Shown: one piece after another, positions 6,187 through 28,640 of the stretch | Layout of the letters: each line of letters opens with the position of its first letter | How positions within the stretch are numbered: the stretch's first letter is position 1 | Sequence record: OK272490.1 | Length of the DNA: 64,000 bases | Strand: one strand, 5' to 3' | Source: Escherichia phage JLBYU32 | Notes under the pieces: generated by a model | Seen by the model: the letters and a program-made list of their open reading frames with translations, nothing else | Database searches by the model: none | Told to the model about the DNA's origin: nothing | Translations under genes and position numbers: made by a program

Positions 6187-6513
6187 ATGCAGATTAATGG
6201 AAGAGATTTTGTAGCCGTTTACTACGAGAAAGATAAAGAAGTTGGCGTAGCACAAGTATCTTATGGCAATGGTAAGTGGTTGTATGGGACAATCGCAGTA
6301 GTTGGAACAAGAAGTGATACAAAAACTTTTAAAGACTGTGTTGACCTTCTTGAAGAATCCATCCATAATCATTGGTGTCTGATATGGATGACTGACAACG
6401 AAGTGATAGAACGCTTCAAAAAGATTGGTATCAACATTGATAGCATTGAGCATGTTGACTTGTATGAGCTAACTGAGAAGGTAAACTATGAAAGTAATAC
6501 TAGCCAGAGATAA
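6187..6513 (+). CDS. hypothetical protein
   Basis: ORF in tightly packed + strand array. Confidence 0.5.
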   Translation: MQINGRDFVAVYYEKDKEVGVAQVSYGNGKWLYGTIAVVGTRSDTKTFKDCVDLLEESIHNHWCLIWMTDNEVIERFKKIGINIDSIEHVDLYELTEKVNYESNTSQR

Positions 6514-6721
6514 AAAGACCCGTAAGATTGTACGTTCAGCAGTATTCATAGGGAGAGATGAAGTTGTACCGTTTGCAGGGGAAGATGTGCTAACTTATAA
6601 GAAGGGTTTAAAACGTAAATTCAGTGACCGTTTACGTGGCTTCATCTCTGAACCATTAGAAGATTTCAAAAGTCGCTGTGGCGAAGGCATCATCATTCAA
6701 GAGGCAATTATTCATGGCTGA
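6488..6721 (+). CDS. hypothetical protein
   Basis: ORF. Confidence 0.4.
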   Translation: MKVILARDKKTRKIVRSAVFIGRDEVVPFAGEDVLTYKKGLKRKFSDRLRGFISEPLEDFKSRCGEGIIIQEAIIHG

Positions 6722-22138: not shown

Positions 22139-23554
22139 ATGAGCGAGTTATTTAAACATGCGCACCTTCATGCAGGTCGAACTGAAAATGGTGCTGTAAA
22201 CCATACTTCATCAATGTCTTCTCTGGTAGACTTTTACAAAGCCGCTGGCTCAAGCCGTAGTAATGTAGAAATCTTACCAGACCTGTTCTACAAAGCTTTG
22301 CGTGAGGATGTTGATGTTGCAGTTCGTATTTTGCTTCATATGCGAGATGTACGAGAAGGTATGGGTGAGCGTAAAGCTTTCCGAACTGTTTTACTTCAAG
22401 CGATTGAAGATAAAGTTTTAGAGCCTACGCAGGTTCTTCGCATTATGGGTAAGATTGCAGAACTTGGTCGTTTTGATGACTTCAAAATCTTCGCAGGTAC
22501 TCGTTTTGAGACAGATGCCTTCAAACATTTAGAAGCAGCATTACTAGACCCTGCAACAGCAGGTTTAGCAGCTAAGTGGTTGCCACGAGTAAAACCACGC
22601 CACAAACAGTTTGTAAAACGTTTCTGCAAGTTTGCAAACTTAAGTGAGAAGGAGTATCGCACACTGTTGTCTGCACTGTCTGATACGGTTGAGCAAAAAA
22701 TCTCTGCTAATGAGTTTGGTAAGATTGACTACAGCAAGATTCCTTCACTCGCTGCTGCACGTTACCAAAAACTCTTTAACCGTAAAGATGGGGAACGTTA
22801 CAAAGCTTACATTGAGTCCCTCTCAAAAGGTGAGGCTAAGATTAACGCTGGCGCTGTTTACCCATACGATGTGATTAAATCTATCAAGTATGGTAATGCA
22901 GATGTTGCTAATGAGCAGTGGAAAGCACTACCAAACTGGATGGCAGAAGGTGAAAACATCCTGTGTATGACTGATGTTTCAAGCTCAATGTCTTGGGTGA
23001 ATCTTGGTTCAATCACTGCCCTTGATATTGGTGTATCACTTGCATTGTATGTAGCAGAACGCAATACAGGTTGCTTTAAAAATGAGTTAATGGTGTACTC
23101 AACAGACCCTCATTTCATCGAACTGAGTGGTGATTTACAGACTCGTATGCGTCAAGTAATGAGTCATGTTGAATATGGTTCAACTTACTTACAAGCAGCT
23201 TTTGACCGTATTCTTGAGATAGGTAAAAGAAACAACTTGACTCAGGAAGATATGCCAAGTAAGCTTATCATCTTCTCCGATATGGAGTTCAATCAGGTTG
23301 ATGGTGCTAACGGTCGTACAAACTTTGAAGCAATTCAGAGTAAGTACAAAAAAGCTGGATATGAGATGCCACAACTGGTATTCTGGTACTTAGCAAACCG
23401 TAATGGCACTTGCGAAGTATCTGTTAAGGATAACGGTGTAGCAATGGTATCTGGTTTCTCTCCAGCCACTTTAAAAGCTCTGCTTGGTGGTGAGAAGTTT
23501 GACCCAATCAGCGTAATGCTCAAAGCAGTAATGATTGACCGTTACATTTGGTAA
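22139..23554 (+). CDS. vWA-domain protein with MIDAS-like DxSxS motif (Ro60/TROVE- or DUF2828-like architecture)
   Basis: alpha-helical N-terminal half; CMTDVSSSMS MIDAS-like motif and FSDMEF in C-terminal half; 471 aa. Confidence 0.45.
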   Translation: MSELFKHAHLHAGRTENGAVNHTSSMSSLVDFYKAAGSSRSNVEILPDLFYKALREDVDVAVRILLHMRDVREGMGERKAFRTVLLQAIEDKVLEPTQVLRIMGKIAELGRFDDFKIFAGTRFETDAFKHLEAALLDPATAGLAAKWLPRVKPRHKQFVKRFCKFANLSEKEYRTLLSALSDTVEQKISANEFGKIDYSKIPSLAAARYQKLFNRKDGERYKAYIESLSKGEAKINAGAVYPYDVIKSIKYGNADVANEQWKALPNWMAEGENILCMTDVSSSMSWVNLGSITALDIGVSLALYVAERNTGCFKNELMVYSTDPHFIELSGDLQTRMRQVMSHVEYGSTYLQAAFDRILEIGKRNNLTQEDMPSKLIIFSDMEFNQVDGANGRTNFEAIQSKYKKAGYEMPQLVFWYLANRNGTCEVSVKDNGVAMVSGFSPATLKALLGGEKFDPISVMLKAVMIDRYIW

Positions 23555-23572: not shown

Positions 23573-23601
23573 TTGACAATATGTTTGATACCCTTTAATA
23601 T
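23573..23601 (+). promoter_or_regulatory. sigma70-like promoter TTGACA-17-TAATAT overlapped by palindrome GGGTATTGACAATA...ATACCC
   Basis: consensus boxes; inverted repeat spans the -35; upstream of tRNA cluster. Confidence 0.55.
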
Positions 23602-23663
23602 GTTCTACATAGAAACGAAATGAGAGCTTTTCTAAGATACTGAAAAATATTTTAAAAAAGTTC

Positions 23664-23692
23664 TTGACAATCACTAAAAAATAATGTTAAAG
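23664..23692 (+). promoter_or_regulatory. candidate promoter TTGACA with weak -10, just upstream of first tRNA
   Basis: TTGACA at 23664; -10 ambiguous. Confidence 0.3.
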
Positions 23693-23719
23693 TGGTTACA
23701 TAGAGTTTGAAAAGTTTAT

Positions 23720-23796
23720 CTCTGTTTAGCTCAGCTTGGTAGAGCGTTCCGTTTGGGGCGGTAAGGCCGGAGGTTCAAGTCCTCCAACAGAGACCA
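23720..23796 (+). tRNA. tRNA-Pro (anticodon TGG)
   Basis: hand-folded cloverleaf; 7-bp acceptor, T-arm GGAGG-TTCAAGT-CCTCC, CCA encoded. Confidence 0.7.
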
Positions 23797-23803
23797 AATT
23801 AAT

Positions 23804-23881
23804 GTTCCAGTAGACAAAACGGTAAAGTCACCACTCTTTCAAAGTGGATATTTGAGGGCTCAAATCCCTTCTGGAACGCCA
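23804..23881 (+). tRNA. tRNA-Glu (anticodon TTC), atypical T-loop CTCAAAT
   Basis: perfect acceptor and anticodon stems; loop CTTTCAA. Confidence 0.7.
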
Positions 23882-23883
23882 GT

Positions 23884-23963
23884 TTTGACAGAAGACCAAT
23901 TACAGCAAGTTTAATCTTATTCATCTGACACGAAATCGGACAAAGAAGAGATTTGGTCTGGTC
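23884..23963 (+). repeat. tRNA spacer element CAGAAGACC..ACAGCAA ... TTGGTCTGG (copy 1)
   Basis: long-range inverted repeat AGACC/GGTCT; recurs at least 4 times between tRNAs. Confidence 0.6.
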
Positions 23964-23972
23964 ATTAAGAAT

Positions 23973-24049
23973 TGCGGGTATAGAGAAAGGGCGTCTCACA
24001 TGTCTCATTAGCATGGTATCGGCAGGTTCGACTCCTGCACCCGCCTCCA
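23973..24049 (+). tRNA. tRNA-Met (anticodon CAT)
   Basis: anticodon loop CTCATTA; T-arm GCAGG-TTCGACT-CCTGC; 1-72 mismatch. Confidence 0.65.
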
Positions 24050-24050
24050 A

Positions 24051-24117
24051 TTTTGCAGAAGACCGTATGCAGCAATAAACTACTTTTTGCGGATAAAAGA
24101 AAAAACACGGTCTGGCA
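24051..24117 (+). repeat. tRNA spacer element (copy 2)
   Basis: TTTTGCAGAAGACCGTATGCAGCAA ... CACGGTCTGGC. Confidence 0.6.
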
Positions 24118-24126
24118 ATGTATTAA

Positions 24127-24203
24127 GGTTAGGAAGCACATAAGGTATGTGCGGTCGCCTGTTAAGCGAATGGCACAGGGTTCGAATCCCTGACTAACCG
24201 CCA
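24127..24203 (+). tRNA. tRNA-Asn (anticodon GTT)
   Basis: loop CTGTTAA; T-arm CAGGG-TTCGAAT-CCCTG. Confidence 0.75.
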
Positions 24204-24212
24204 AATTTAAAT

Positions 24213-24300
24213 GTGTCGTTATCCCGTAGATGGTAGCGGTGGGGACTGTAAATCCCTTGTCATTGAGACTCGGTAGGTTCGACTCCTACACGGCACACCA
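24213..24300 (+). tRNA. tRNA-Tyr (anticodon GTA), long variable arm
   Basis: 88 nt; loop CTGTAAA; T-arm GTAGG-TTCGACT-CCTAC. Confidence 0.7.
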
Positions 24301-24306
24301 AATAAA

Positions 24307-24384
24307 GGTTATGTAGTTTAATCTGGTTAAAATACTCCCCTGTCACGGGAGATGATGAGGGTTCAAATCCCTTCGTAACCGCCA
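24307..24384 (+). tRNA. tRNA-Asp (anticodon GTC)
   Basis: anticodon stem CTCCC/GGGAG, loop CTGTCAC. Confidence 0.75.
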
Positions 24385-24442
24385 ATTTTGAGAGGGCTAT
24401 TTAGCCCCTCCCTTAAAGAGTTCTTACGAGTATTCTTTAAAG

Positions 24443-24514
24443 GAGCAGAAGACCAAATACAGCAAATACGTATGATATTTTCAAGCCAATTTAATTTTGA
24501 AAAAATTTAAAACT
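24443..24514 (+). repeat. tRNA spacer element (copy 3)
   Basis: GCAGAAGACCAAATACAGCAA ... AACTTGGTCTGGC. Confidence 0.6.
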
Positions 24515-24520
24515 TGGTCT

Positions 24521-24668
24521 GGCTCAACAATTTTACAGAAGACCGTTTACAGCAAAACTTAAACAATCTATTTCTCGGTAAAGAAAAGGAGAAGGTTCGA
24601 TTCCTTCACTCGACAGATGTCGAGTTGGTGTAATGGTAGCACTTAAGATGATAAACAACGGTCTGGTA
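24521..24668 (+). repeat. tRNA spacer element (copy 4) containing a tRNA-like fragment
   Basis: TTTTACAGAAGACCGTTTACAGCAA ... AACGGTCTGG. Confidence 0.6.
24585..24640 (+). pseudogene. tRNA-like fragment: T-arm then acceptor-like hairpin then D-arm-like segment (degenerate or permuted tRNA?)
   Basis: GAAGG-TTCGATT-CCTTC then ACTCGAC-AGAT-GTCGAGT then TGGTGTAATGGTAGCAC; no canonical cloverleaf in normal order. Confidence 0.25.
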
Positions 24669-24817
24669 ATCATCTTTGCAGTAGCTTATGTGGCTAATTA
24701 TGTCGTCCCATGAGTGCCGATGAATTTCCTTAGCATGATTCTAGATTAGCTTAATAGGAAATGACTCTACAGACCCTTTAGCAAGGTCTGCGTAGGTTAC
24801 TGCAAAGATGATTTAAT

Positions 24818-24892
24818 GGAAGTGTAGCAGAATGGTGATGCGGCAGACTTTTAATCTGACAGGCGATGGGTTCGAATCCCTCCACTTCTACC
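24818..24892 (+). tRNA. tRNA-Lys (anticodon TTT)
   Basis: loop CTTTTAA; paralog of tRNA at 26051 (shared T-arm GATGGGTTCRAWTCCCTCC). Confidence 0.65.
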
Positions 24893-24897
24893 AAAAT

Positions 24898-24974
24898 GGT
24901 TCAGTCGCAGATAAGGTAATGCAGGGGTCTCATAAGCCCTATGAATGTGGGTTCGATTCCCATCTGAACCTCCA
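24898..24974 (+). tRNA. tRNA with anticodon CAT (Met, or Ile via lysidine)
   Basis: loop CTCATAA; perfect acceptor GGTTCAG/CTGAACC. Confidence 0.7.
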
Positions 24975-24976
24975 AT

Positions 24977-25051
24977 TGTGGGTTAGCATAAATGGTAATG
25001 CAAACGGCTGATAACCGTTAGAAGAGGGTTCGATACCCTCACCTACAACCA
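24977..25051 (+). tRNA. tRNA-Ile (anticodon GAT)
   Basis: anticodon stem AACGG/CCGTT, loop CTGATAA. Confidence 0.75.
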
Positions 25052-25066
25052 ATTTCAATAAAGTTG

Positions 25067-25095
25067 TTGACATTTAGATGTGACCACTTTATAGT
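25067..25095 (+). promoter_or_regulatory. sigma70-like promoter TTGACA-17-TATAGT inside tRNA cluster
   Basis: consensus boxes; followed by ~200 nt of structured non-tRNA sequence before next tRNA. Confidence 0.6.
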
Positions 25096-25299
25096 AACCT
25101 TAGTTTTCGTTGCGTAGCGTCTATTTTGCAAATTTAAAATAAATGCAAACGACAATGTTTTTCTGGCAGTAGCTTGATAGGCTAAACACCAGTGAGGTCT
25201 TCCAATCCCTCATCAAAGAATTTGGCGTACTAGCCCACGGTATGATTAATAAAGTGGGCATCTTTAAGGGCTTTCTAAGAGAGTCTTTAAAGATAATTA

Positions 25300-25381
25300 C
25301 GGGGCGTATCTCAGCTGTCTTCTAAACAGCCGTTAACCGAGTAAGTGGAGTATGCGGGTTCGAGTCCTGCCGCCTCGACCA
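25300..25381 (+). tRNA. atypical tRNA-like gene (possible anticodon TCT, Arg); fold uncertain
   Basis: good acceptor and T-arm (GCGGG-TTCGAGT-CCTGC) but non-canonical D region; hairpin GCTGT-CTTCTAA-ACAGC. Confidence 0.35.
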
Positions 25382-25524
25382 ATTTAGTTAGCAGATTACT
25401 TAGACGACCTAAGCGGGTCTTCCTGTAGGGAGGTGGTCTGTATCTCATGTTTTCCAGAACATGTAAATAATCTGAGAAGGGGCTTTACAGTGTTGAGATA
25501 ATACGGTAAGCTTCGAATTATAGT

Positions 25525-25606
25525 ATGGGACGATGTTAAGACTCTAAGGCATGAGCAACGGCTTCCAACACCGTTTCAAAGGGGTTCAACTCCTCCGTCC
25601 CATGCC
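25525..25606 (+). tRNA. atypical tRNA, possibly tRNA-Trp (anticodon CCA) with oversized D region
   Basis: perfect 7-bp acceptor ATGGGAC/GTCCCAT, T-loop TTCAACT; candidate anticodon loop TTCCAAC. Confidence 0.4.
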
Positions 25607-25620
25607 AAAGTCTTATTAGG

Positions 25621-25708
25621 GGTAGGTAGCGGCTAATGGTAGCCAAACTGTCTTGAAAACAGTTGCCACTGTAGAGATACGGTGAGGGTTCGACTCCTTT
25701 ACTTACCG
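25621..25708 (+). tRNA. tRNA-Ser (anticodon TGA), long variable arm
   Basis: 88 nt; anticodon stem ACTGT/ACAGT loop CTTGAAA; CCA not encoded. Confidence 0.7.
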
Positions 25709-25855
25709 CCTAATAAGATTTAAAGCCAAGCTTCATTCGGATGTTGCTTTGGTATACCGCGTGTATTGTTGTACACACAGATAAAACACCTAGTAGGTGT
25801 CACGGAGAAGAGATAATATCAAGCTCTCCAAAGGTTCTAGTCACCGGATTAAACA

Positions 25856-25880
25856 AGACTATGCAAAGACCTTTTTAGGT
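25856..25880 (+). terminator. hairpin + T-tract inside tRNA cluster spacer
   Basis: AAGACC-TTTTT-AGGTCTT followed by TTTTAGAG. Confidence 0.4.
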
Positions 25881-25966
25881 CTTTTTAGAGGGCTTCTAAG
25901 GTTATTAGTCGCTTGTTGTGGAACCTTGTTGCTCAGGTTCTTAGAAGTTCTCTAAAAAGATTTAAT

Positions 25967-26043
25967 GCACCTATAGCCCAACTGGTGGAGGCAGCAGACT
26001 TAGAATCTGCTCAGTGTGAGTTCGAATCTCTCTAGGTGTACCA
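25967..26043 (+). tRNA. tRNA with anticodon TAG (Leu by anticodon) but class I (short variable loop) shape
   Basis: anticodon stem GCAGA/TCTGC loop CTTAGAA; 77 nt; discriminator A. Confidence 0.6.
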
Positions 26044-26050
26044 AATTAAT

Positions 26051-26126
26051 GCAGGTGTAGCAAAATGGTTATGCGGCTGACTCTTAATCAGTAAGACGAT
26101 GGGTTCAATTCCCTCCACCTGTACCA
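26051..26126 (+). tRNA. tRNA-Lys (anticodon CTT)
   Basis: loop CTCTTAA; paralog of tRNA-Lys(TTT) at 24818. Confidence 0.65.
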
Positions 26127-26132
26127 AACATT

Positions 26133-26208
26133 GGGGTCATAGTTTATATGGTTAAAATTCGAGTTTTGCAAACTTGGGAACTGAGTTCAATTCTCAGTGA
26201 CTCCACCA
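26133..26208 (+). tRNA. tRNA-Ala (anticodon TGC)
   Basis: G3:U70 wobble pair in acceptor stem; loop TTTGCAA; T-arm CTGAG-TTCAATT-CTCAG. Confidence 0.8.
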
Positions 26209-26214
26209 ATTAGT

Positions 26215-26289
26215 GCATCCATAGTTTAAACGGGAAAATTACAGTCTTCCAAACTGAGGTTGAGGGTTCGATTCCCTCTGGATGCTCCA
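26215..26289 (+). tRNA. tRNA-Gly (anticodon TCC)
   Basis: perfect acceptor GCATCCA/TGGATGC; loop CTTCCAA. Confidence 0.75.
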
Positions 26290-26296
26290 AATTAAT

Positions 26297-26372
26297 GCTC
26301 CTATCGTATAATTGGCTATTACGGTTGCCTTGTAAGCAACTTATCAGGGTTCGAATCCTTGTGGGAGCACCA
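26297..26372 (+). tRNA. tRNA-Thr (anticodon TGT)
   Basis: anticodon stem GTTGC/GCAAC loop CTTGTAA. Confidence 0.8.
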
Positions 26373-26467
26373 ATTCAGAGGTCAAGTGAAAGACCGCTTT
26401 GAGTCAACTGAAGACCGTAACAAATTCCACGGAGTTGAGTTAGCGGCACAACTCCAGACCTCTTTCA

Positions 26468-26543
26468 TACTCGCTTAGTTTATATGGTAAAACATCACCC
26501 TTACAAGATGAAGAAAAAGGTTCAAGTCCTTTAGTGAGTACCA
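26468..26543 (+). tRNA. tRNA-Val (anticodon TAC)
   Basis: T-arm AAAGG-TTCAAGT-CCTTT; loop CTTACAA. Confidence 0.65.
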
Positions 26544-26544
26544 T

Positions 26545-26622
26545 GTTCCAGTATCCCAATTGGCAGAGGATGCAAGCTCAAACCTTGTACTAGTGACGGT
26601 TCGAATCCGTCTTGGAACACCA
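26545..26622 (+). tRNA. tRNA with anticodon CAA (Leu by anticodon), class I shape
   Basis: T-arm GACGG-TTCGAAT-CCGTC; loop CTCAAAC; discriminator A. Confidence 0.6.
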
Positions 26623-26627
26623 ATTTT

Positions 26628-26703
26628 GCAGGATTAGTTCAAATGGAAAGAGCAACAGTCTACGAAGCTGTTAATAGGGGTTCGAATCCCTTATCCTGCG
26701 CCA
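26628..26703 (+). tRNA. tRNA-Arg (anticodon ACG)
   Basis: perfect acceptor GCAGGAT/ATCCTGC; loop CTACGAA. Confidence 0.8.
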
Positions 26704-26722
26704 ATTTAAAGAGGCTATTTAG

Positions 26723-27280
26723 ATGAGATATTTGAAGTATGCTTCATGGATTTTCTTAGCTTTGTTAGAGCCATTTGCAGCAATCTTAGCAGTTATCTTA
26801 GCACCTTTTGTAGTTCCATTCTACAGTGAGAAGAAAGGACACTTACCTTTCGGGTTCAGATGGATGGAGACATATGACAACCCAATTGATGGTGATGAAG
26901 GTCACGTTAAAAGATGGGCTAATATTAGATGGATTGGTAAACTAGGTGTCTACATGCAAAGAGTCGGATGGCTCTGGAGAAACAAAGCTTATAACTTCTC
27001 TTACCATGTATTAGGAAGAGATGTAAAAGATGTTACTAAGTGGAAAGGTAATATCAACGTAAGTTCTGACCCCGAAGATAATCAGACAGGTTATCTCCTA
27101 ATGTGGAACAGTAATGCTTGGGGATTATTCGCTTTTATCCCATCAATTAAAATCTTTGGTAAACAATTTTACTGGAGAATTTATATTGGATGGAAACTAA
27201 AAAGTGTTGTCCCAGAAGAAAGAGCATTCTCAAGGGAAAGAGTTATGTTGGCATTCTTTATTCATCCACTGAGAAAGTAA
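26723..27280 (+). CDS. hypothetical membrane-anchored, Trp-rich protein embedded in tRNA cluster
   Basis: AAAGAGG RBS 8 nt upstream of ATG; N-terminal hydrophobic segment. Confidence 0.55.
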   Translation: MRYLKYASWIFLALLEPFAAILAVILAPFVVPFYSEKKGHLPFGFRWMETYDNPIDGDEGHVKRWANIRWIGKLGVYMQRVGWLWRNKAYNFSYHVLGRDVKDVTKWKGNINVSSDPEDNQTGYLLMWNSNAWGLFAFIPSIKIFGKQFYWRIYIGWKLKSVVPEERAFSRERVMLAFFIHPLRK

Positions 27281-27288
27281 AGATTTAA

Positions 27289-27364
27289 AGGGGATTAGTT
27301 TACAAGGTTAAAACCTCGGTCTTTGAAATCGAAGAAGTTGGTTCAATTCCAACATCCCCCGCCA
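27289..27364 (+). tRNA. tRNA-Gln (anticodon TTG)
   Basis: T-arm GTTGG-TTCAATT-CCAAC; loop CTTTGAA. Confidence 0.7.
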
Positions 27365-27366
27365 AT

Positions 27367-27445
27367 GCTCCATTACTCCAATTGGCAGAGAGGCCAGACT
27401 TAAAATCTGTGTTATGTATCGGTTCGAATCCGATATGGAGTACCA
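27367..27445 (+). tRNA. tRNA with anticodon TAA (Leu by anticodon), class I-like shape
   Basis: T-arm ATCGG-TTCGAAT-CCGAT; loop CTTAAAA; discriminator A. Confidence 0.6.
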
Positions 27446-27450
27446 AATTT

Positions 27451-27526
27451 AGCGGTATAGCATAACTGGCAATGCAGCAGCCTCTGAAGCTGTCCTATTA
27501 AGGTTCAAATCCTTATGCCGCTGCCA
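27451..27526 (+). tRNA. tRNA-Gln (anticodon CTG)
   Basis: T-arm TAAGG-TTCAAAT-CCTTA; loop CTCTGAA. Confidence 0.65.
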
Positions 27527-27557
27527 CTTCTAAGGATTCTTGCGAGAGTCCTTAAAT

Positions 27558-27633
27558 GTGGCCTTATCATAAATGGTAATGACCCATGCTGTGAACATGG
27601 TCTATACGGGTTCAAATCCCGTAGGTCACCCCA
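27558..27633 (+). tRNA. tRNA-His (anticodon GTG)
   Basis: anticodon stem CCATG/CATGG loop CTGTGAA; discriminator C. Confidence 0.75.
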
Positions 27634-27639
27634 ATTTAT

Positions 27640-27715
27640 AGTCCAAGTAGCTTATATGGTTAAAGCGCGTGTCTGAAAAACATGAGAAGAGGGTTCGAAT
27701 CCCACTGGACTACCA
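27640..27715 (+). tRNA. tRNA-Phe (anticodon GAA)
   Basis: loop CTGAAAA; T-loop TTCGAAT; acceptor pairing slightly ambiguous. Confidence 0.65.
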
Positions 27716-27731
27716 ATTTCAAAGGTGCTTA

Positions 27732-28466
27732 ATGAAAGAGATGACAGAACAAGGTAAGGAGATTTTTAATCTCTTAAAAACCGGTAGAGGGTTTTCTAAT
27801 CCCCTTATTACTGGTGCAGCAGTTCTCGGTGGAACCGTAGCTGCCTCTACATCACTTGTAAGTTCTATTAGCTCTGTAACAGACCCTACAATGAAGGAGA
27901 AACTTGTTGCTGCTGGACTTACAACAGTCCTTCTAAACAGCTTTACAACAAGCCTTACAAGCACTACAGCGACTACTAAGACCTTAACAGACTATGGTCA
28001 AAAGTCTATTGATGAGTTTTCATCACGTATGCAGGTAGCAAAGGGGTATTCCAATGTTATGGGTGCAGCAGGGGAACAAGTTGGCTGTACACCGTTTAGT
28101 GGTATTATGGGCGTTGCTACAGAATATGGTCAAAAAGCTATTGACACAATTAACAGTGCACTAGATGACGTTAATGATGTATTAAGTGACTTACAAGATG
28201 CTATTGATAAGGGTCTTGATACTGTTTCTGATTTAGCTAATCAGGCTGTTAGCAAGATTAATGAAGGTATCTCGAAGATTACAGCTTATGCAGATGAAGT
28301 TGTGCAGATGATTGAAGAAGAAGCTGCCCTTATTGCAGAGTACCTTAAAACGAATATCAATGGGTTCTTAGCAGGTATCTTACCAGACTGGTTTGATGAT
28401 GCCTGTAAAACTGGTGTAATTGATACTATTGCAACACCAGAAATGAAGAGCGCATTACAGAAGTAA
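27732..28466 (+). CDS. hypothetical Ser/Thr/Ala-rich protein embedded in tRNA cluster
   Basis: start moved to ATG 27732 (track start 27669 is an alternative start inside tRNA-Phe); ends 1 nt before tRNA-Ser. Confidence 0.5.
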   Translation: MKEMTEQGKEIFNLLKTGRGFSNPLITGAAVLGGTVAASTSLVSSISSVTDPTMKEKLVAAGLTTVLLNSFTTSLTSTTATTKTLTDYGQKSIDEFSSRMQVAKGYSNVMGAAGEQVGCTPFSGIMGVATEYGQKAIDTINSALDDVNDVLSDLQDAIDKGLDTVSDLANQAVSKINEGISKITAYADEVVQMIEEEAALIAEYLKTNINGFLAGILPDWFDDACKTGVIDTIATPEMKSALQK

Positions 28467-28467
28467 T

Positions 28468-28560
28468 GGAAGATTAACCCTAAAAGGTAAGGGAGCAGTT
28501 TGCTAAACTGCCAGTAGCTGAGAAATCGGTGTACCAGTTCAAGTCTGGTATCTTCCTCCA
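28468..28560 (+). tRNA. tRNA-Ser (anticodon GCT), long variable arm
   Basis: 93 nt; perfect acceptor GGAAGAT/ATCTTCC; anticodon stem GCAGT/ACTGC loop TTGCTAA. Confidence 0.75.
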
Positions 28561-28564
28561 ATTT

Positions 28565-28640
28565 GAATCCGTGACAGAAATGGCTATGTGCCTGTCTGCA
28601 AAACAGGTTTATAAGGGTTCGAGTCCCTTCGGATTCTCCA
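28565..28640 (+). tRNA. tRNA-Cys (anticodon GCA)
   Basis: perfect acceptor GAATCCG/CGGATTC; anticodon stem CCTGT/ACAGG loop CTGCAAA. Confidence 0.8.

What the first reader, a model, noticed from the sequence alone, without database searches (positions are those of the whole stretch)
24585..24640. tRNA-like fragment with T-arm, acceptor-like hairpin and D-arm-like segment in non-canonical order
A canonical T-arm (GAAGG-TTCGATT-CCTTC) is followed by a perfect hairpin ACTCGAC-AGAT-GTCGAGT and then a D-arm-like TGGTGTAATGGTAGCAC, with no anticodon arm in the normal position. It could be a degenerate tRNA, a permuted tRNA gene, or a tRNA-like decoy.
Basis: seen in the sequence. Interest (0 to 1): 0.45.

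Follow-up and report, generated by a model that had tools for sequence, protein, structure and literature searches.

The report
Phage Y RNA with tRNA-like core
The "scrambled tRNA" is the core of a conserved ~130-nt non-coding RNA of the YrlA/Y-RNA type, encoded 1 kb downstream of a previously unrecognised Ro60-like protein gene in a Felix O1-like phage, so it is a new member of a known RNA-protein system, not a broken or permuted tRNA gene.

Summary
A T arm (24591-24607), a perfect 7-bp hairpin (24608-24625) and a D arm (24628-42) lie in that order, and there is no anticodon arm.

They are the core of a longer RNA, 24536-24668 (+). Its two ends pair (24540-47 with 24657-64) and enclose a variable-arm hairpin, the T arm, a closed "acceptor" hairpin and the D arm. 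This is the published architecture of YrlA-type bacterial and phage Y RNAs.

- **Partner gene:** the gene 982 nt upstream on the same strand (22139-23554; Pfam DUF2828/DUF7788) has a Ro60 fold. The top 11 PDB matches are all Ro60/TROVE.
- **RNA family:** covariance models built from the element find full-length relatives beside distant homologues of that gene. All 94 hits are on the gene's strand. 27 of 32 base pairs covary, and the tRNA 15:48 tertiary pair covaries too.
- **Link to known YrlA:** the same RNA family sits beside a canonical TROVE Ro60 gene in another viral contig. Rfam's YrlA model hits some members below threshold, but not the window copy.
- **Sibling units:** three shorter units in the window share the terminal helix and a UNCAGCAA motif.

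Most likely role: a Y RNA partner of the phage Ro60-like protein. Binding and function are inferred, not shown. Verdict: new member of a known kind, of moderate interest.

The parts
22139..23554 (+). Ro60-like protein gene (471 aa; HEAT-repeat ring plus vWA domain with a DxSxS MIDAS motif). Proposed protein partner of the RNA.
   Evidence: Pfam gives only DUF2828 + DUF7788; PHROG 850 is named 'RNA-binding protein'. AF2 model from 45 homologues has pLDDT 87.6. In Foldseek against PDB, the top 11 hits are all Ro60/TROVE, E 3e-8 to 3e-7, TM 0.5-0.65 over the full length. D279/S281/S283 are invariant.
23573..23693 (+). Two sigma-70-like promoter matches (23573-23601 and 23664-23693) ahead of the first tRNA/Y-like cluster.
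   Evidence: Consensus scan. There is no + strand terminator-like site before the next promoter-like site at 25067. Co-transcription is an inference.
23889..23963 (+). Sibling unit 1: terminal helix AGACCAA/UUGGUCU plus UACAGCAA motif, no tRNA-like core.
   Evidence: Repeat pattern: 4 matches against 0.09 expected. Conserved in Felixounavirus and Suspvirus loci and, as the variant AGGCCAA, in Mooglevirus. Weak full-model hits with R1/R2.
24056..24117 (+). Sibling unit 2: helix AGACCGU/ACGGUCU plus UGCAGCAA motif.
   Evidence: 33.6 bits; 35 bits.
24446..24523 (+). Sibling unit 3: helix AGACCAA/UUGGUCU plus UACAGCAA motif.
   Evidence: 27.9 bits.
24536..24668 (+). Unit 4: the complete YrlA-like RNA that contains the finding.
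   Evidence: MFE and centroid folds. R1 164.7 bits and R2 121 bits. The same fold is predicted independently for seven Ounavirinae variants.
24540..24547 (+). P1 5' strand (AGACCGUU). It pairs with 24657-24664.
   Evidence: 7 of 8 pairs covary and 94.6% of cells are paired in A3.
24548..24555 (+). UACAGCAA internal-loop motif (family consensus U-N-C-A-G-C-A-A). Proposed protein-binding determinant.
   Evidence: Nearly invariant in 31 family members (A4). It sits at the position of YrlA's GNCGAAN0-1G motif, but the sequence differs. Binding is inferred.
24567..24590 (+). V (variable-arm-like) hairpin.
   Evidence: Present but different in sequence in Mooglevirus and in distant members. It is the least conserved helix, with 76% of cells paired.
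24591..24607 (+). T arm: GAAGG-UUCGAUU-CCUUC.
   Evidence: 100% of cells paired and 3 of 5 pairs covary. The T-loop consensus GGUUCGAnUCC holds family-wide.
24608..24625 (+). AS: closed acceptor-stem mimic, 7 bp with loop AGAU. The predicted RNase P site is between 24618 and 24619.
   Evidence: 7 of 7 pairs covary and 100% of cells are paired. The loop begins with N-CCA in six relatives. Cleavage is inferred by analogy with M. smegmatis YrlA (PMC4201824).
24626..24642 (+). U8/G9 equivalents (24626-24627) plus the D arm GUGU-AAUGGUA-GCAC.
   Evidence: 98% of cells paired. G18 and G19 are present. The 15:48 Levitt pair covaries in the family, but it is A:A in the window copy.
24657..24664 (+). 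P1 3' strand (AACGGUCU), followed by the conserved GG.
24669..24812 (+). Adjoining ~145-nt long-stem domain. Its membership in the system is uncertain.
   Evidence: Long perfect helix in the MFE fold. The wV8 version has diverged, with compensatory changes in the stem. It contains a mini hairpin, CAGACC-CUUUAGCAA-GGUCUG.

Best explanation
The finding is the tRNA-like effector module of a phage-encoded Y RNA of the YrlA type.

**The RNA.** It spans about 24536-24668 on the + strand and is probably cut out of the polycistronic tRNA precursor. It folds so that its 5' and 3' ends form a terminal helix next to a conserved UNCAGCAA loop. Inside that helix lie a variable-arm hairpin, a T arm, a closed 7-bp acceptor-stem mimic and a D arm. 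Together these should adopt a tRNA-like L shape in which the anticodon arm is replaced by the terminal helix.

**Proposed mechanism.** The terminal helix and motif bind the Ro60-like ring protein encoded 1 kb upstream. The tRNA-like module presents a tRNA-shaped surface to a host enzyme, most likely PNPase or another tRNA-recognising enzyme. The RNA would thereby gate or tether the Ro60-like protein, as Y RNAs do in Deinococcus, Salmonella and Thermus phage phiLo. Three shorter sibling RNAs with the same terminal module but no tRNA-like core would be alternative partners, by analogy with YrlB.

**Shown here:** the sequence and structure, covariation, gene linkage, the Ro60 fold of the neighbouring protein, and the link to canonical YrlA/TROVE loci.

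**Inferred:** expression and RNA ends, protein binding, RNase P cleavage, the identity of the effector, and the biological role.
For: 1. **Architecture.** The order terminal stem, V, T, AS, D is identical to YrlA as described in PMC4201824. It is predicted by MFE for the window and for 7 variants.

2. **Covariation.**
- Within the Ounavirinae, the AS is 100% paired through 3 sequence types.
- Across 19 diverse members, 93% of cells pair against 41-46% in slid controls. 27 of 32 pairs show compensatory change. AS is 7/7, P1 is 7/8, and the T arm is 100% paired.
- The tertiary Levitt pair 15:48 is G:C in 12 rows and A:U in 9, with no G:U or A:C, among 31 rows.

3. **Partner gene.** The upstream gene has a Ro60 fold over its full length and an invariant MIDAS motif.

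4. **Linkage.**
- R1 and R2 find full-length relatives next to DUF2828 genes that are only 40-56% identical.
- All 94 R2 hits with E<=0.01 in 757 kb lie on the gene's strand.
- In a motif-first scan of viral contigs, 15 of 47 RNA-positive short loci hold the gene, against 5 of 73 RNA-negative loci. All 15 are on the same strand.

5. **Bridge to canonical Ro60/YrlA.**
- Viral contig L170 has a Pfam TROVE + vWA_Ro60 gene with three tandem R2 hits directly upstream on the same strand.
- Rfam YrlA (RF02553) hits family members at 36.7-42.1 bits (E 2e-4 to 6e-6). That is at least as good as the bona fide mycobacteriophage Bxz1 YrlA, at 32.5 bits.

6. **Literature.**
- In the Felixounavirus Bas63, gp130 (described as Ro60-like and directly upstream of the tRNA genes) counters the ppl defence. 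The authors only guessed that some annotated tRNAs might be Y RNAs (PMC11482910).
- The phiLo Ro60 binds phage Yrl RNAs and host PNPase (PMC12135203).

7. **Strand.** G-U pairs in the AS, D and V stems, together with the T-loop consensus, fix the + strand.
Against: - There is no expression, RNA-end or binding data for this RNA.
- The window copy is not hit by Rfam YrlA even at E<=10.
- YrlA's GNCGAAN0-1G motif is absent.
- The partner protein is Ro60-like by fold only; Pfam TROVE does not match it.
- gp130 alone, expressed from a plasmid or from the T7 genome without these RNAs, counters ppl. The RNA is therefore not needed for that phenotype.
- One natural relative (L011) has lost the AS and D arms through T-arm recombination with tRNA-Lys, so the tRNA-like core is dispensable for viability.
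- tRNA arrays also co-occur with the gene, so linkage to the gene and linkage to tRNA arrays are partly confounded.
- 32 of 47 RNA-positive loci from the reverse scan showed no Ro60-like gene within the short stretch held.
- The covariation alignments were fitted to the model.
Confidence: 0.75

Rival explanations
1. tRNA-precursor punctuation or stability element. The tRNA-like fold and the repeated P1 hairpins would serve only to attract RNase P, RNase Z or RNase E, or to block exonucleases, so that the polycistronic tRNA transcript is processed correctly. They would act independently of the Ro60-like protein.
For: - All units lie between tRNA genes in one probable transcription unit.
- tRNA arrays accompany the gene in most loci.
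- A 7-bp stem stacked on a T arm is an RNase P minihelix substrate (established knowledge).
- Many reverse-scan hits lack a visible Ro60-like gene in the held stretch.
Against: - Strong hits lie directly beside the gene in loci with only one tRNA within ~8 kb: L064, L065, L105, L112 and L115.
- Units occur only in the first kilobase after the gene, and not in the other 3.8 kb of the window's array.
- The same family flanks a canonical TROVE gene that has no array.
- A nearly invariant 8-nt loop motif is not needed for RNase P or RNase Z.
Confidence: 0.1
2. Two-piece aminoacylatable tRNA mimic or decoy. RNase P would open the AS hairpin and the 3' end would be trimmed and CCA-tailed. The resulting split tRNA-like molecule would then act on its own as a decoy or sink for a tRNA-targeting host toxin or defence enzyme, or as a substrate of a synthetase or modification enzyme.
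For: - The AS is exactly 7 bp, and M. smegmatis YrlA with a 7-bp AS is cut by RNase P and CCA-tailed (PMC4201824).
- Six genuine relatives encode N-CCA immediately after the 5' AS strand, where about 1 in 64 would be expected by chance.
- The window copy has A at the discriminator position.
Against: - The window loop is AGAU, with no encoded CCA.
- Several relatives have a shortened AS or none (L071, L058, L049).
- There is no anticodon arm, so it cannot be a decoy for anticodon nucleases.
- There is no G3:U70 or other recognisable identity set.
- This reading does not explain the conserved P1 + UNCAGCAA module or the sibling units.
Confidence: 0.1
3. Degenerate tRNA remnant or recombination scar: two tRNA halves left by deletion or duplication in the array.
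For: The array does recombine. L011 fused this T arm to that of tRNA-Lys, and pseudo-tRNAs are annotated in relatives.
Against: - It is conserved in 251 records.
- Compensatory changes are seen in every helix over 40-56% protein divergence.
- No relative has an intact tRNA at this position.
Confidence: 0.02
4. True permuted tRNA gene or two-piece tmRNA, matured by circularisation or by pairing of two pieces into a decoding RNA.
For: The 3' half precedes the 5' half, as in Cyanidioschyzon merolae permuted tRNA genes and in permuted ssrA (own knowledge).
Against: - There is no anticodon loop.
- There is no tag ORF, no pseudoknots and no G3:U70.
- ARAGORN and Rfam tRNA/tmRNA models are negative here.
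- Bacteria lack the BHB-splicing endonuclease that permuted tRNAs need (established knowledge).
Confidence: 0.02

Closest known systems
YrlA (Rfam RF02553): tRNA-like Y RNAs encoded next to rsr/Ro60 in Salmonella, Mycobacterium and 22 phages (Chen et al. 2014, PMC4201824)
   Same: - The order is terminal stem, V, T, AS, D.
- T- and D-loop nucleotides are tRNA-like and the 15:48 pair covaries.
- It lies on the same strand and within 4 kb of a Ro60-type gene.
- It is multi-copy, with shorter siblings (compare YrlB).
- A 7-bp AS is present, as in the RNase P-cleaved M. smegmatis YrlA.
- Relatives of the window RNA score 37-42 bits on RF02553.
   Different: - The window copy is not detected by RF02553.
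- The 5' motif is UNCAGCAA, not GNCGAAN0-1G.
- The partner protein belongs to Pfam DUF2828/DUF7788, not TROVE.
- The units are interleaved with tRNA genes in an array.
Thermus phage phiLo Ro60 with Yrl1/Yrl2 (PMC12135203; PDB 9KOP, 9L5Y)
   Same: - A phage-encoded Ro60-fold protein has adjacent phage-encoded Y-like RNAs.
- 9KOP and 9L5Y are among the top fold matches of the window protein.
- A RYPER-like complex with host PNPase was shown there.
   Different: - The phiLo RNAs were picked by a CGAA motif and a stem-bulge-stem shape. A tRNA-like core is not described in the passages read.
- The protein is a recognisable TROVE protein.
- The RNAs lie upstream of the gene.
Bas63 gp130 (PhageMaP preprint, PMC11482910)
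   Same: - It is a Felixounavirus gene directly upstream of the tRNA array and was noted as structurally Ro60-like. It is almost certainly the orthologue of 22139-23554 (inference from synteny).
- Y RNAs were suspected there.
   Different: - The preprint guessed that some annotated tRNAs are the Y RNAs. The actual candidates found here lie in unannotated spacers.
- gp130 counters ppl without them.
Metazoan Y RNAs and Deinococcus Yrn1
   Same: The 5' and 3' ends form the protein-binding stem and an internal module binds effectors. Yrn1 also has a T-arm-like stem-loop.
   Different: There is no GGUCCGA bulged helix. The window RNA has a complete T/AS/D tRNA mimic in the YrlA orientation.
Permuted tRNA genes (Cyanidioschyzon merolae) and two-piece tmRNA
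   Same: The 3' acceptor/T-arm half is encoded upstream of the 5' acceptor/D-arm half.
   Different: There is no anticodon arm, no BHB motif, no tag ORF and no G3:U70. It is not predicted to decode anything.

Membership tests
YrlA-type Y RNA (Chen et al. 2014; Rfam RF02553) | Encoded within ~4 kb of a Ro60 orthologue and on the same strand. | tested here: met
   The unit starts 982 nt after the stop codon of 22139-23554, on the same strand. Family-wide, all 94 hits are on the gene's strand. Caveat: it is a Ro60 by fold, not by Pfam TROVE.
YrlA-type Y RNA (Chen et al. 2014; Rfam RF02553) | Stem-loops V, T, AS, D in that order, enclosed by a helix formed by the RNA's 5' and 3' parts. | tested here: met
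   Folds and covariation.
YrlA-type Y RNA (Chen et al. 2014; Rfam RF02553) | tRNA-like conserved nucleotides and a covarying 15:48 Levitt pair. | tested here: met
   UUCGAUU T loop, G18 and G19, U8, A14 and A21 are present. In the family, 15:48 is G:C in 12 rows and A:U in 9, with no mixed pairs, of 31 rows. In the window copy itself it is A15:A48, which is non-canonical.
YrlA-type Y RNA (Chen et al. 2014; Rfam RF02553) | GNCGAAN0-1G motif near the 5' end. | tested here: not met
   There is no match in any of the four units. A different, nearly invariant motif, UNCAGCAA, occupies the equivalent place.
YrlA-type Y RNA (Chen et al. 2014; Rfam RF02553) | Reaches the Rfam RF02553 gathering score (69 bits). 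| tested here: not met
   The window has no hit at E<=10. Relatives score 36.7-42.1 bits. The bona fide Bxz1 YrlA also reaches only 32.5 bits, so this threshold is a poor test for phage members.
YrlA-type Y RNA (Chen et al. 2014; Rfam RF02553) | Bound by Ro60 in vivo, and modified by TruB and DusA. | not testable with these tools
   This needs RIP/CLIP and modification mapping.
Ro60/TROVE protein (for gene 22139-23554) | HEAT-repeat ring followed by a vWA domain with a MIDAS motif. | tested here: met
   The top 11 Foldseek hits are Ro60/Rsr/phiLo Ro60 over the full length. D279-x-S281-x-S283 is invariant.
Ro60/TROVE protein (for gene 22139-23554) | Sequence-level match to Pfam TROVE (PF05731) and vWA_Ro60 (PF25045). 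| tested here: not met
   Only DUF2828 and DUF7788 match. The profile against PDB sequences gives Ro60 at an insignificant E of ~1. Bxz1 gp220 does match both families.
tRNA gene (normal or circularly permuted) | Anticodon arm with a 7-nt loop; detected by tRNA models. | tested here: not met
   ARAGORN and Rfam tRNA models find nothing at 24385-24817. The strands that would form the anticodon stem lead into P1.
tmRNA (one- or two-piece) | G3:U70 acceptor pair, tag reading frame and pseudoknots. | tested here: not met
   The AS pair 3:70 is C-G. There is no tmRNA hit at this locus.

The most novel reading that the evidence does not exclude
The RNA is not just a passive Y-RNA scaffold. RNase P opens its 7-bp acceptor hairpin, and the new 3' end is trimmed and CCA-tailed (several relatives already encode N-CCA there). 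This yields a two-piece tRNA mimic with a free acceptor end, held on the Ro60-like ring. The complex would then act in the phage-host conflict over tRNAs. It could do so as a sensor or decoy for acceptor-end-targeting defence enzymes, or as a platform that brings damaged phage or host tRNAs to repair or decay enzymes. That would explain why thousands of phages keep a Ro60-like gene welded to their tRNA arrays, and why the protein counters a defence system.
Probability: 0.15. Interest if true: 0.8.

Novelty: new member of a known kind. Interest (0 to 1): 0.55.

Why it matters
- It pins down candidate Y RNAs that a 2024 preprint only guessed at for Felix O1-like phages. It also shows that the large DUF2828/DUF7788 phage protein family (at least 2,789 database proteins) is a Ro60 branch with its own YrlA-like RNAs.
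- It places a Ro60/Y-RNA system in easily manipulated E. coli and Salmonella phages (Felix O1, Bas63), where the protein already has an anti-defence phenotype. The long-open question of what the tRNA-like module of bacterial Y RNAs does becomes directly testable there.
- It flags about 130-nt unannotated RNA genes in more than 250 deposited phage genomes.
- It gives a new protein-binding motif candidate, UNCAGCAA.

Tried and rejected
- **Single-sequence AF2 of the protein** gave an unusable model (pLDDT 44). It was redone with an alignment.
- **Sequence and profile search of PDB** gave only insignificant Ro60 hits, E about 1.
- **Rfam on the window gap** found nothing relevant.
- **A 4-bp 'anticodon-stem' helix CUUA/UAAG** from the MFE fold is not conserved in Suspvirus or Mooglevirus. 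An alternative, AUCU/AGAU, is possible but untested, so neither was put in the model.
- **Thermodynamic z-scores** do not discriminate the strand: -2.4 on + and -3.7 on -. The strand was set by G-U pairs and context.
- **The reverse scan from an RNA motif to the gene** was only partly informative. The held loci are short, from 1 to 15 kb, so absence of the gene from a locus is not absence from the genome. L135, for example, is on the same contig as the gene-bearing L068.
- **The crude regex census of P1 + motif modules** has a high background: 160 on the + strand against 50 on the - strand.
- **Whether the lack of tRNA-Trp in the array** meant a hidden tRNA-Trp lay here was considered. There is no CCA anticodon context, so this was rejected.
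- **Literature search** for DUF2828 or for Felixounavirus with 'tRNA-like' found no prior description of the RNA.

Full report
**Setting.** The window is a Felix O1-like phage (Ounavirinae). The 433-nt stretch 24385-24817 matches 251 phage records at 80-99% identity, mostly Felixounavirus, Suspvirus and Mooglevirus, and is unannotated or carries only 'hypothetical protein' calls. ARAGORN finds 25 tRNA genes at 23720-28640, all on the + strand. The finding lies in a tRNA-free gap between tRNA-Asp (ends 24384) and tRNA-Lys (starts 24818).

**Observation.**
- a T arm, GAAGG-TTCGATT-CCTTC, at 24591-24607;
- a perfect 7-bp hairpin, ACTCGAC-AGAT-GTCGAGT, at 24608-24625;
- TG followed by a D arm, GTGT-AATGGTA-GCAC, at 24626-24642.

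No anticodon arm follows. No tRNA, tmRNA or other Rfam family is called here, even at E<=10.

**Full extent and fold.** The 433-nt gap folds far better than shuffles (z = -5.5). In the MFE and centroid structures of 24536-24668, the three arms are enclosed by an 8-bp helix, P1, formed by AGACCGUU (24540-47) and AACGGUCU (24657-64). One more hairpin (V, 24567-90) lies before the T arm. The order is therefore terminal stem, V, T, closed acceptor-like stem (AS), D. This is a tRNA cloverleaf opened at the anticodon arm and closed at the acceptor end. Seven sequence variants from three phage genera fold independently into the same arrangement.

**This is the YrlA architecture.** Chen et al. 2014 (PMC4201824) describe YrlA-type Y RNAs as having conserved T and D stem-loops with a non-conserved AS stem-loop between them, and often a V stem-loop upstream of T. 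They are encoded within 4 kb of a Ro60 orthologue and on the same strand. M. smegmatis YrlA, which has a 7-bp AS, is cut by RNase P and CCA-tailed.

**The neighbouring gene is a Ro60.** The gene at 22139-23554 (+) ends 982 nt upstream of the unit.
- Pfam sees only DUF2828 + DUF7788. PHROG 850 is named 'RNA-binding protein'.
- A single-sequence AF2 model failed. With 45 homologues, the model reached pLDDT 87.6 and pTM 0.88.
- In Foldseek against the PDB, the first 11 hits are all Ro60/TROVE proteins: Xenopus and human Ro60, Deinococcus Rsr and Thermus phage phiLo Ro60. E-values run from 3e-8 to 3e-7 and TM-scores from 0.5 to 0.65 over the whole length. The next hits are isolated vWA domains.
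- The MIDAS residues D279, S281 and S283 are invariant.
- A profile search of PDB sequences puts Ro60 entries among its weak hits at the vWA/MIDAS region, but not significantly.
- A 2024 preprint on the Felixounavirus Bas63 independently noted that gp130, directly upstream of the tRNA genes, is structurally Ro60-like and counters the ppl defence. [quoted passage not shown]

**Covariation within Ounavirinae.** In 14 distinct sequences, the AS is 100% paired through three different sequences:
- ACUCGAC/GUCGAGU or ACUCGGC/GUCGAGU in Felixounavirus;
- ACACGUU/GGCGUGU in Suspvirus and related loci;
- ACCCUUC/GAAGGGU in Mooglevirus.

Three of its seven pairs change on both sides, while the T and D arms are invariant. 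G-U pairs in the AS, D and V stems fix the + strand.

**A wider family.** A covariance model of these sequences (R1) found full-length matches just downstream or upstream of DUF2828 genes that are only 40-56% identical to the window's, at 42-64 bits and E 1e-6 to 4e-12.

On the 19-row model alignment:
- 93% of cells pair, against 41-46% when partners are slid by 1-3 columns.
- 27 of 32 pairs show changes on both sides.
- AS is 7/7 covarying and 100% paired. The T arm is 100% paired. P1 is 7/8 covarying.
- No shuffle reaches the observed scores.
- Caveat: the alignment is fitted to the model.

The rebuilt model (R2) gave 94 hits with E<=0.01 in 757 kb searched on both strands. Every hit is on the strand of the Ro60-like gene. 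About 21 loci have strong full-length hits, and many others have only short units (see below).

The tRNA tertiary Levitt pair also covaries. Among 31 rows, 15:48 is G:C in 12 and A:U in 9, and is never G:U or A:C. This is the same argument Chen et al. used for an L-shaped fold. In the window copy itself the pair is A:A.

**Conserved non-tRNA module and siblings.** Directly after the P1 5' strand, all members carry U-N-C-A-G-C-A-A: U in 30 of 31 rows, C in 30, G in 31, C in 30 and A in 29.

The window has four units of the form CAGAAGACC-NNN-UACAGCAA...NNN-GGUCUGG, at 23889-23963, 24056-24117, 24446-24523 and 24536-24668. That is 4 matches against 0.09 expected. Their P1 helices differ by compensatory changes (AA/UU versus GU/AC), and they are conserved in related genera. 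Only the fourth carries the tRNA-like core.

Short P1 + motif units also flank the gene in many distant loci. This parallels YrlA and YrlB sharing a Ro-binding motif. YrlA's own motif, GNCGAAN0-1G, is absent here.

**Bridges to canonical YrlA/Ro60.**
- Rfam does contain YrlA (RF02553, gathering score 69 bits). It hits the bona fide YrlA upstream of the TROVE gene gp220 of mycobacteriophage Bxz1 at only 32.5 bits.
- It hits three members of the present family at 36.7-42.1 bits, two of them over the full model. The window copy is not hit.
- R2 recognises the V-T-AS-D core of the Bxz1 YrlA at 24.6 bits, which is about the level of tRNA-tRNA junctions.
- A motif-first scan of viral contigs (CAGCAA...GGTTCGANTCC) returned 120 short loci. 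Of these, 47 have R2 hits with E<=1e-5.
- 15 of those 47 contain the DUF2828 gene inside the held stretch, against 5 of the 73 without R2 hits. All 15 are on the same strand.
- One further locus (L170) has a Pfam-significant TROVE + vWA_Ro60 gene with three tandem R2 hits immediately upstream on the same strand. One of them has an exact UACAGCAA.

**Processing clues.** Promoter-like sites lie at 23573-23601 and 23664-23693, and the next is at 25067. There is no + strand terminator-like site between them, so the units are probably co-transcribed with tRNA-Pro through tRNA-Ile and released by tRNA-processing enzymes (inference).

The AS is 7 bp in most members. In six genuine members, the loop starts with N-CCA directly after the strand equivalent to the tRNA 3' acceptor strand (GCCA or ACCA), where roughly 1 in 64 would be expected. 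This suggests that at least some members are opened by RNase P and end in CCA, as in M. smegmatis. The window loop is AGAU, with A at the discriminator position. Some relatives have a shortened AS or none.

**Mechanism proposed.** The RNA is a Y RNA. P1 plus UNCAGCAA binds the Ro60-like ring. The tRNA-shaped module recruits a tRNA-recognising host factor; PNPase is the best precedent, from Deinococcus/Salmonella RYPER and from phiLo Ro60-Yrl-PNPase (PMC12135203). The three shorter units would be alternative partners. Everything from binding onward is inference.

Points against:
- gp130 alone counters ppl in T7.
- A natural deletion variant (L011) lacks the AS and D arms.
- tRNA arrays co-occur with the gene, which leaves a processing-signal role possible. 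However, strong hits next to the gene in loci with a single tRNA (L064, L065, L105, L112, L115), and next to a TROVE gene, argue for the protein link.

**Classification.** It works like, and is built like, YrlA. For formal membership, three defining features are met: linkage, stem-loop order and tRNA-like tertiary signature. Two are not: the GNCGAA motif and the Rfam threshold. Ro60 binding is untestable here.

I file it as a new member of the known kind 'tRNA-like Y RNA partnered with a phage Ro60', from a divergent branch with its own binding motif. No paper in the searchable library describes it.

**Verdict.** The 'degenerate tRNA' and 'permuted tRNA gene' readings are rejected, and 'tRNA-like' is upheld and made specific. 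Interest is moderate at 0.55. The kind is known, but the finding opens a tractable E. coli and Salmonella phage model and reveals a very large, unannotated phage Ro60/Y-RNA branch.

Noticed in passing
window 23889-23963, 24056-24117, 24446-24523: Three shorter structured units share the terminal helix (AGACC.../...GGUCU), the flanks CAGA/GG and the UACAGCAA-type motif with the tRNA-like unit, but lack a tRNA-like core. They are probably sibling Y-like RNAs (compare YrlB), interleaved with tRNA genes.
   Followed up: partly
window 24669-24812: A ~145-nt domain with a ~23-bp perfect stem lies directly before tRNA-Lys. Only 59 of 251 relatives match it by BLAST. The wV8 counterpart (L002 2783-2925) keeps the long stem through compensatory changes. 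It contains a mini hairpin, CAGACC-CUUUAGCAA-GGUCUG, that resembles the P1 + AGCAA module.
   Followed up: partly
window 25100-25300: Downstream of a strong promoter-like site (25067-25095) lies a tmRNA-tag-like stretch: AAAAUAAAU GCA AAC GAC AAU GUU UUU CUG GCA GUA GCU UGA (ANDNVFLAVA*). Rfam gives weak hits: tmRNA_permuted 32.5 bits (E 8.5e-5) and tmRNA 16.3 bits. ARAGORN calls no tmRNA. The region is 98-99% conserved in Felixounavirus, and 98% conserved even in L035, whose Ro60-like protein is only 63% identical.
   Followed up: partly
window 25300-25381: A tRNA-like gene missed by ARAGORN scores 31.2 bits on Rfam tRNA. It has almost no D arm, a long variable region, an anticodon-loop UCU, an acceptor stem with G3:U70 and A73 (the alanine identity set) and an encoded CCA. 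It is annotated tRNA-Arg in Maleficent, and a 'tRNA-OTHER' pseudogene is annotated in the same gap in wV8.
   Followed up: no
L011 ~6452-6540 (IMGVR_UViG_2706796742_000001): This is a natural deletion variant. The T arm of the Y-like RNA is fused to the T arm and acceptor end of the downstream tRNA-Lys, removing the AS, the D arm and the 3' half of the unit.
   Followed up: partly
window 24385-24445: Two stable hairpins lie immediately after tRNA-Asp: GAGAGGGCUAUUUAGCCCCUCCC and AAAGAGUUCUUACGAGUAUUCUUUAAAGG. Neither is followed by a U run. Their function is unknown.
   Followed up: no
L070 6729-6942 (IMGVR_UViG_3300045253_000023): Rfam gives an archaeal-type RNase P RNA hit at 46.6 bits, E 4.7e-10 (below the gathering score of 84). 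It lies in a viral contig that also carries the Ro60-like gene and a YrlA-like RNA with a long insertion in its AS loop.
   Followed up: no
L039 4231-4305, L115 1332-1406, L112 3231-3307: Suppressor-type tRNAs (anticodons CUA and UUA) lie close to the Ro60-like gene in several distant phage contigs. This hints at stop-codon recoding in those phages.
   Followed up: no
window 23720-28640: The 25-tRNA array covers 19 amino acids and has no tRNA-Trp. A 185-aa ORF (26723-27280) and a 265-aa ORF (27669-28466) are embedded in it.
   Followed up: no
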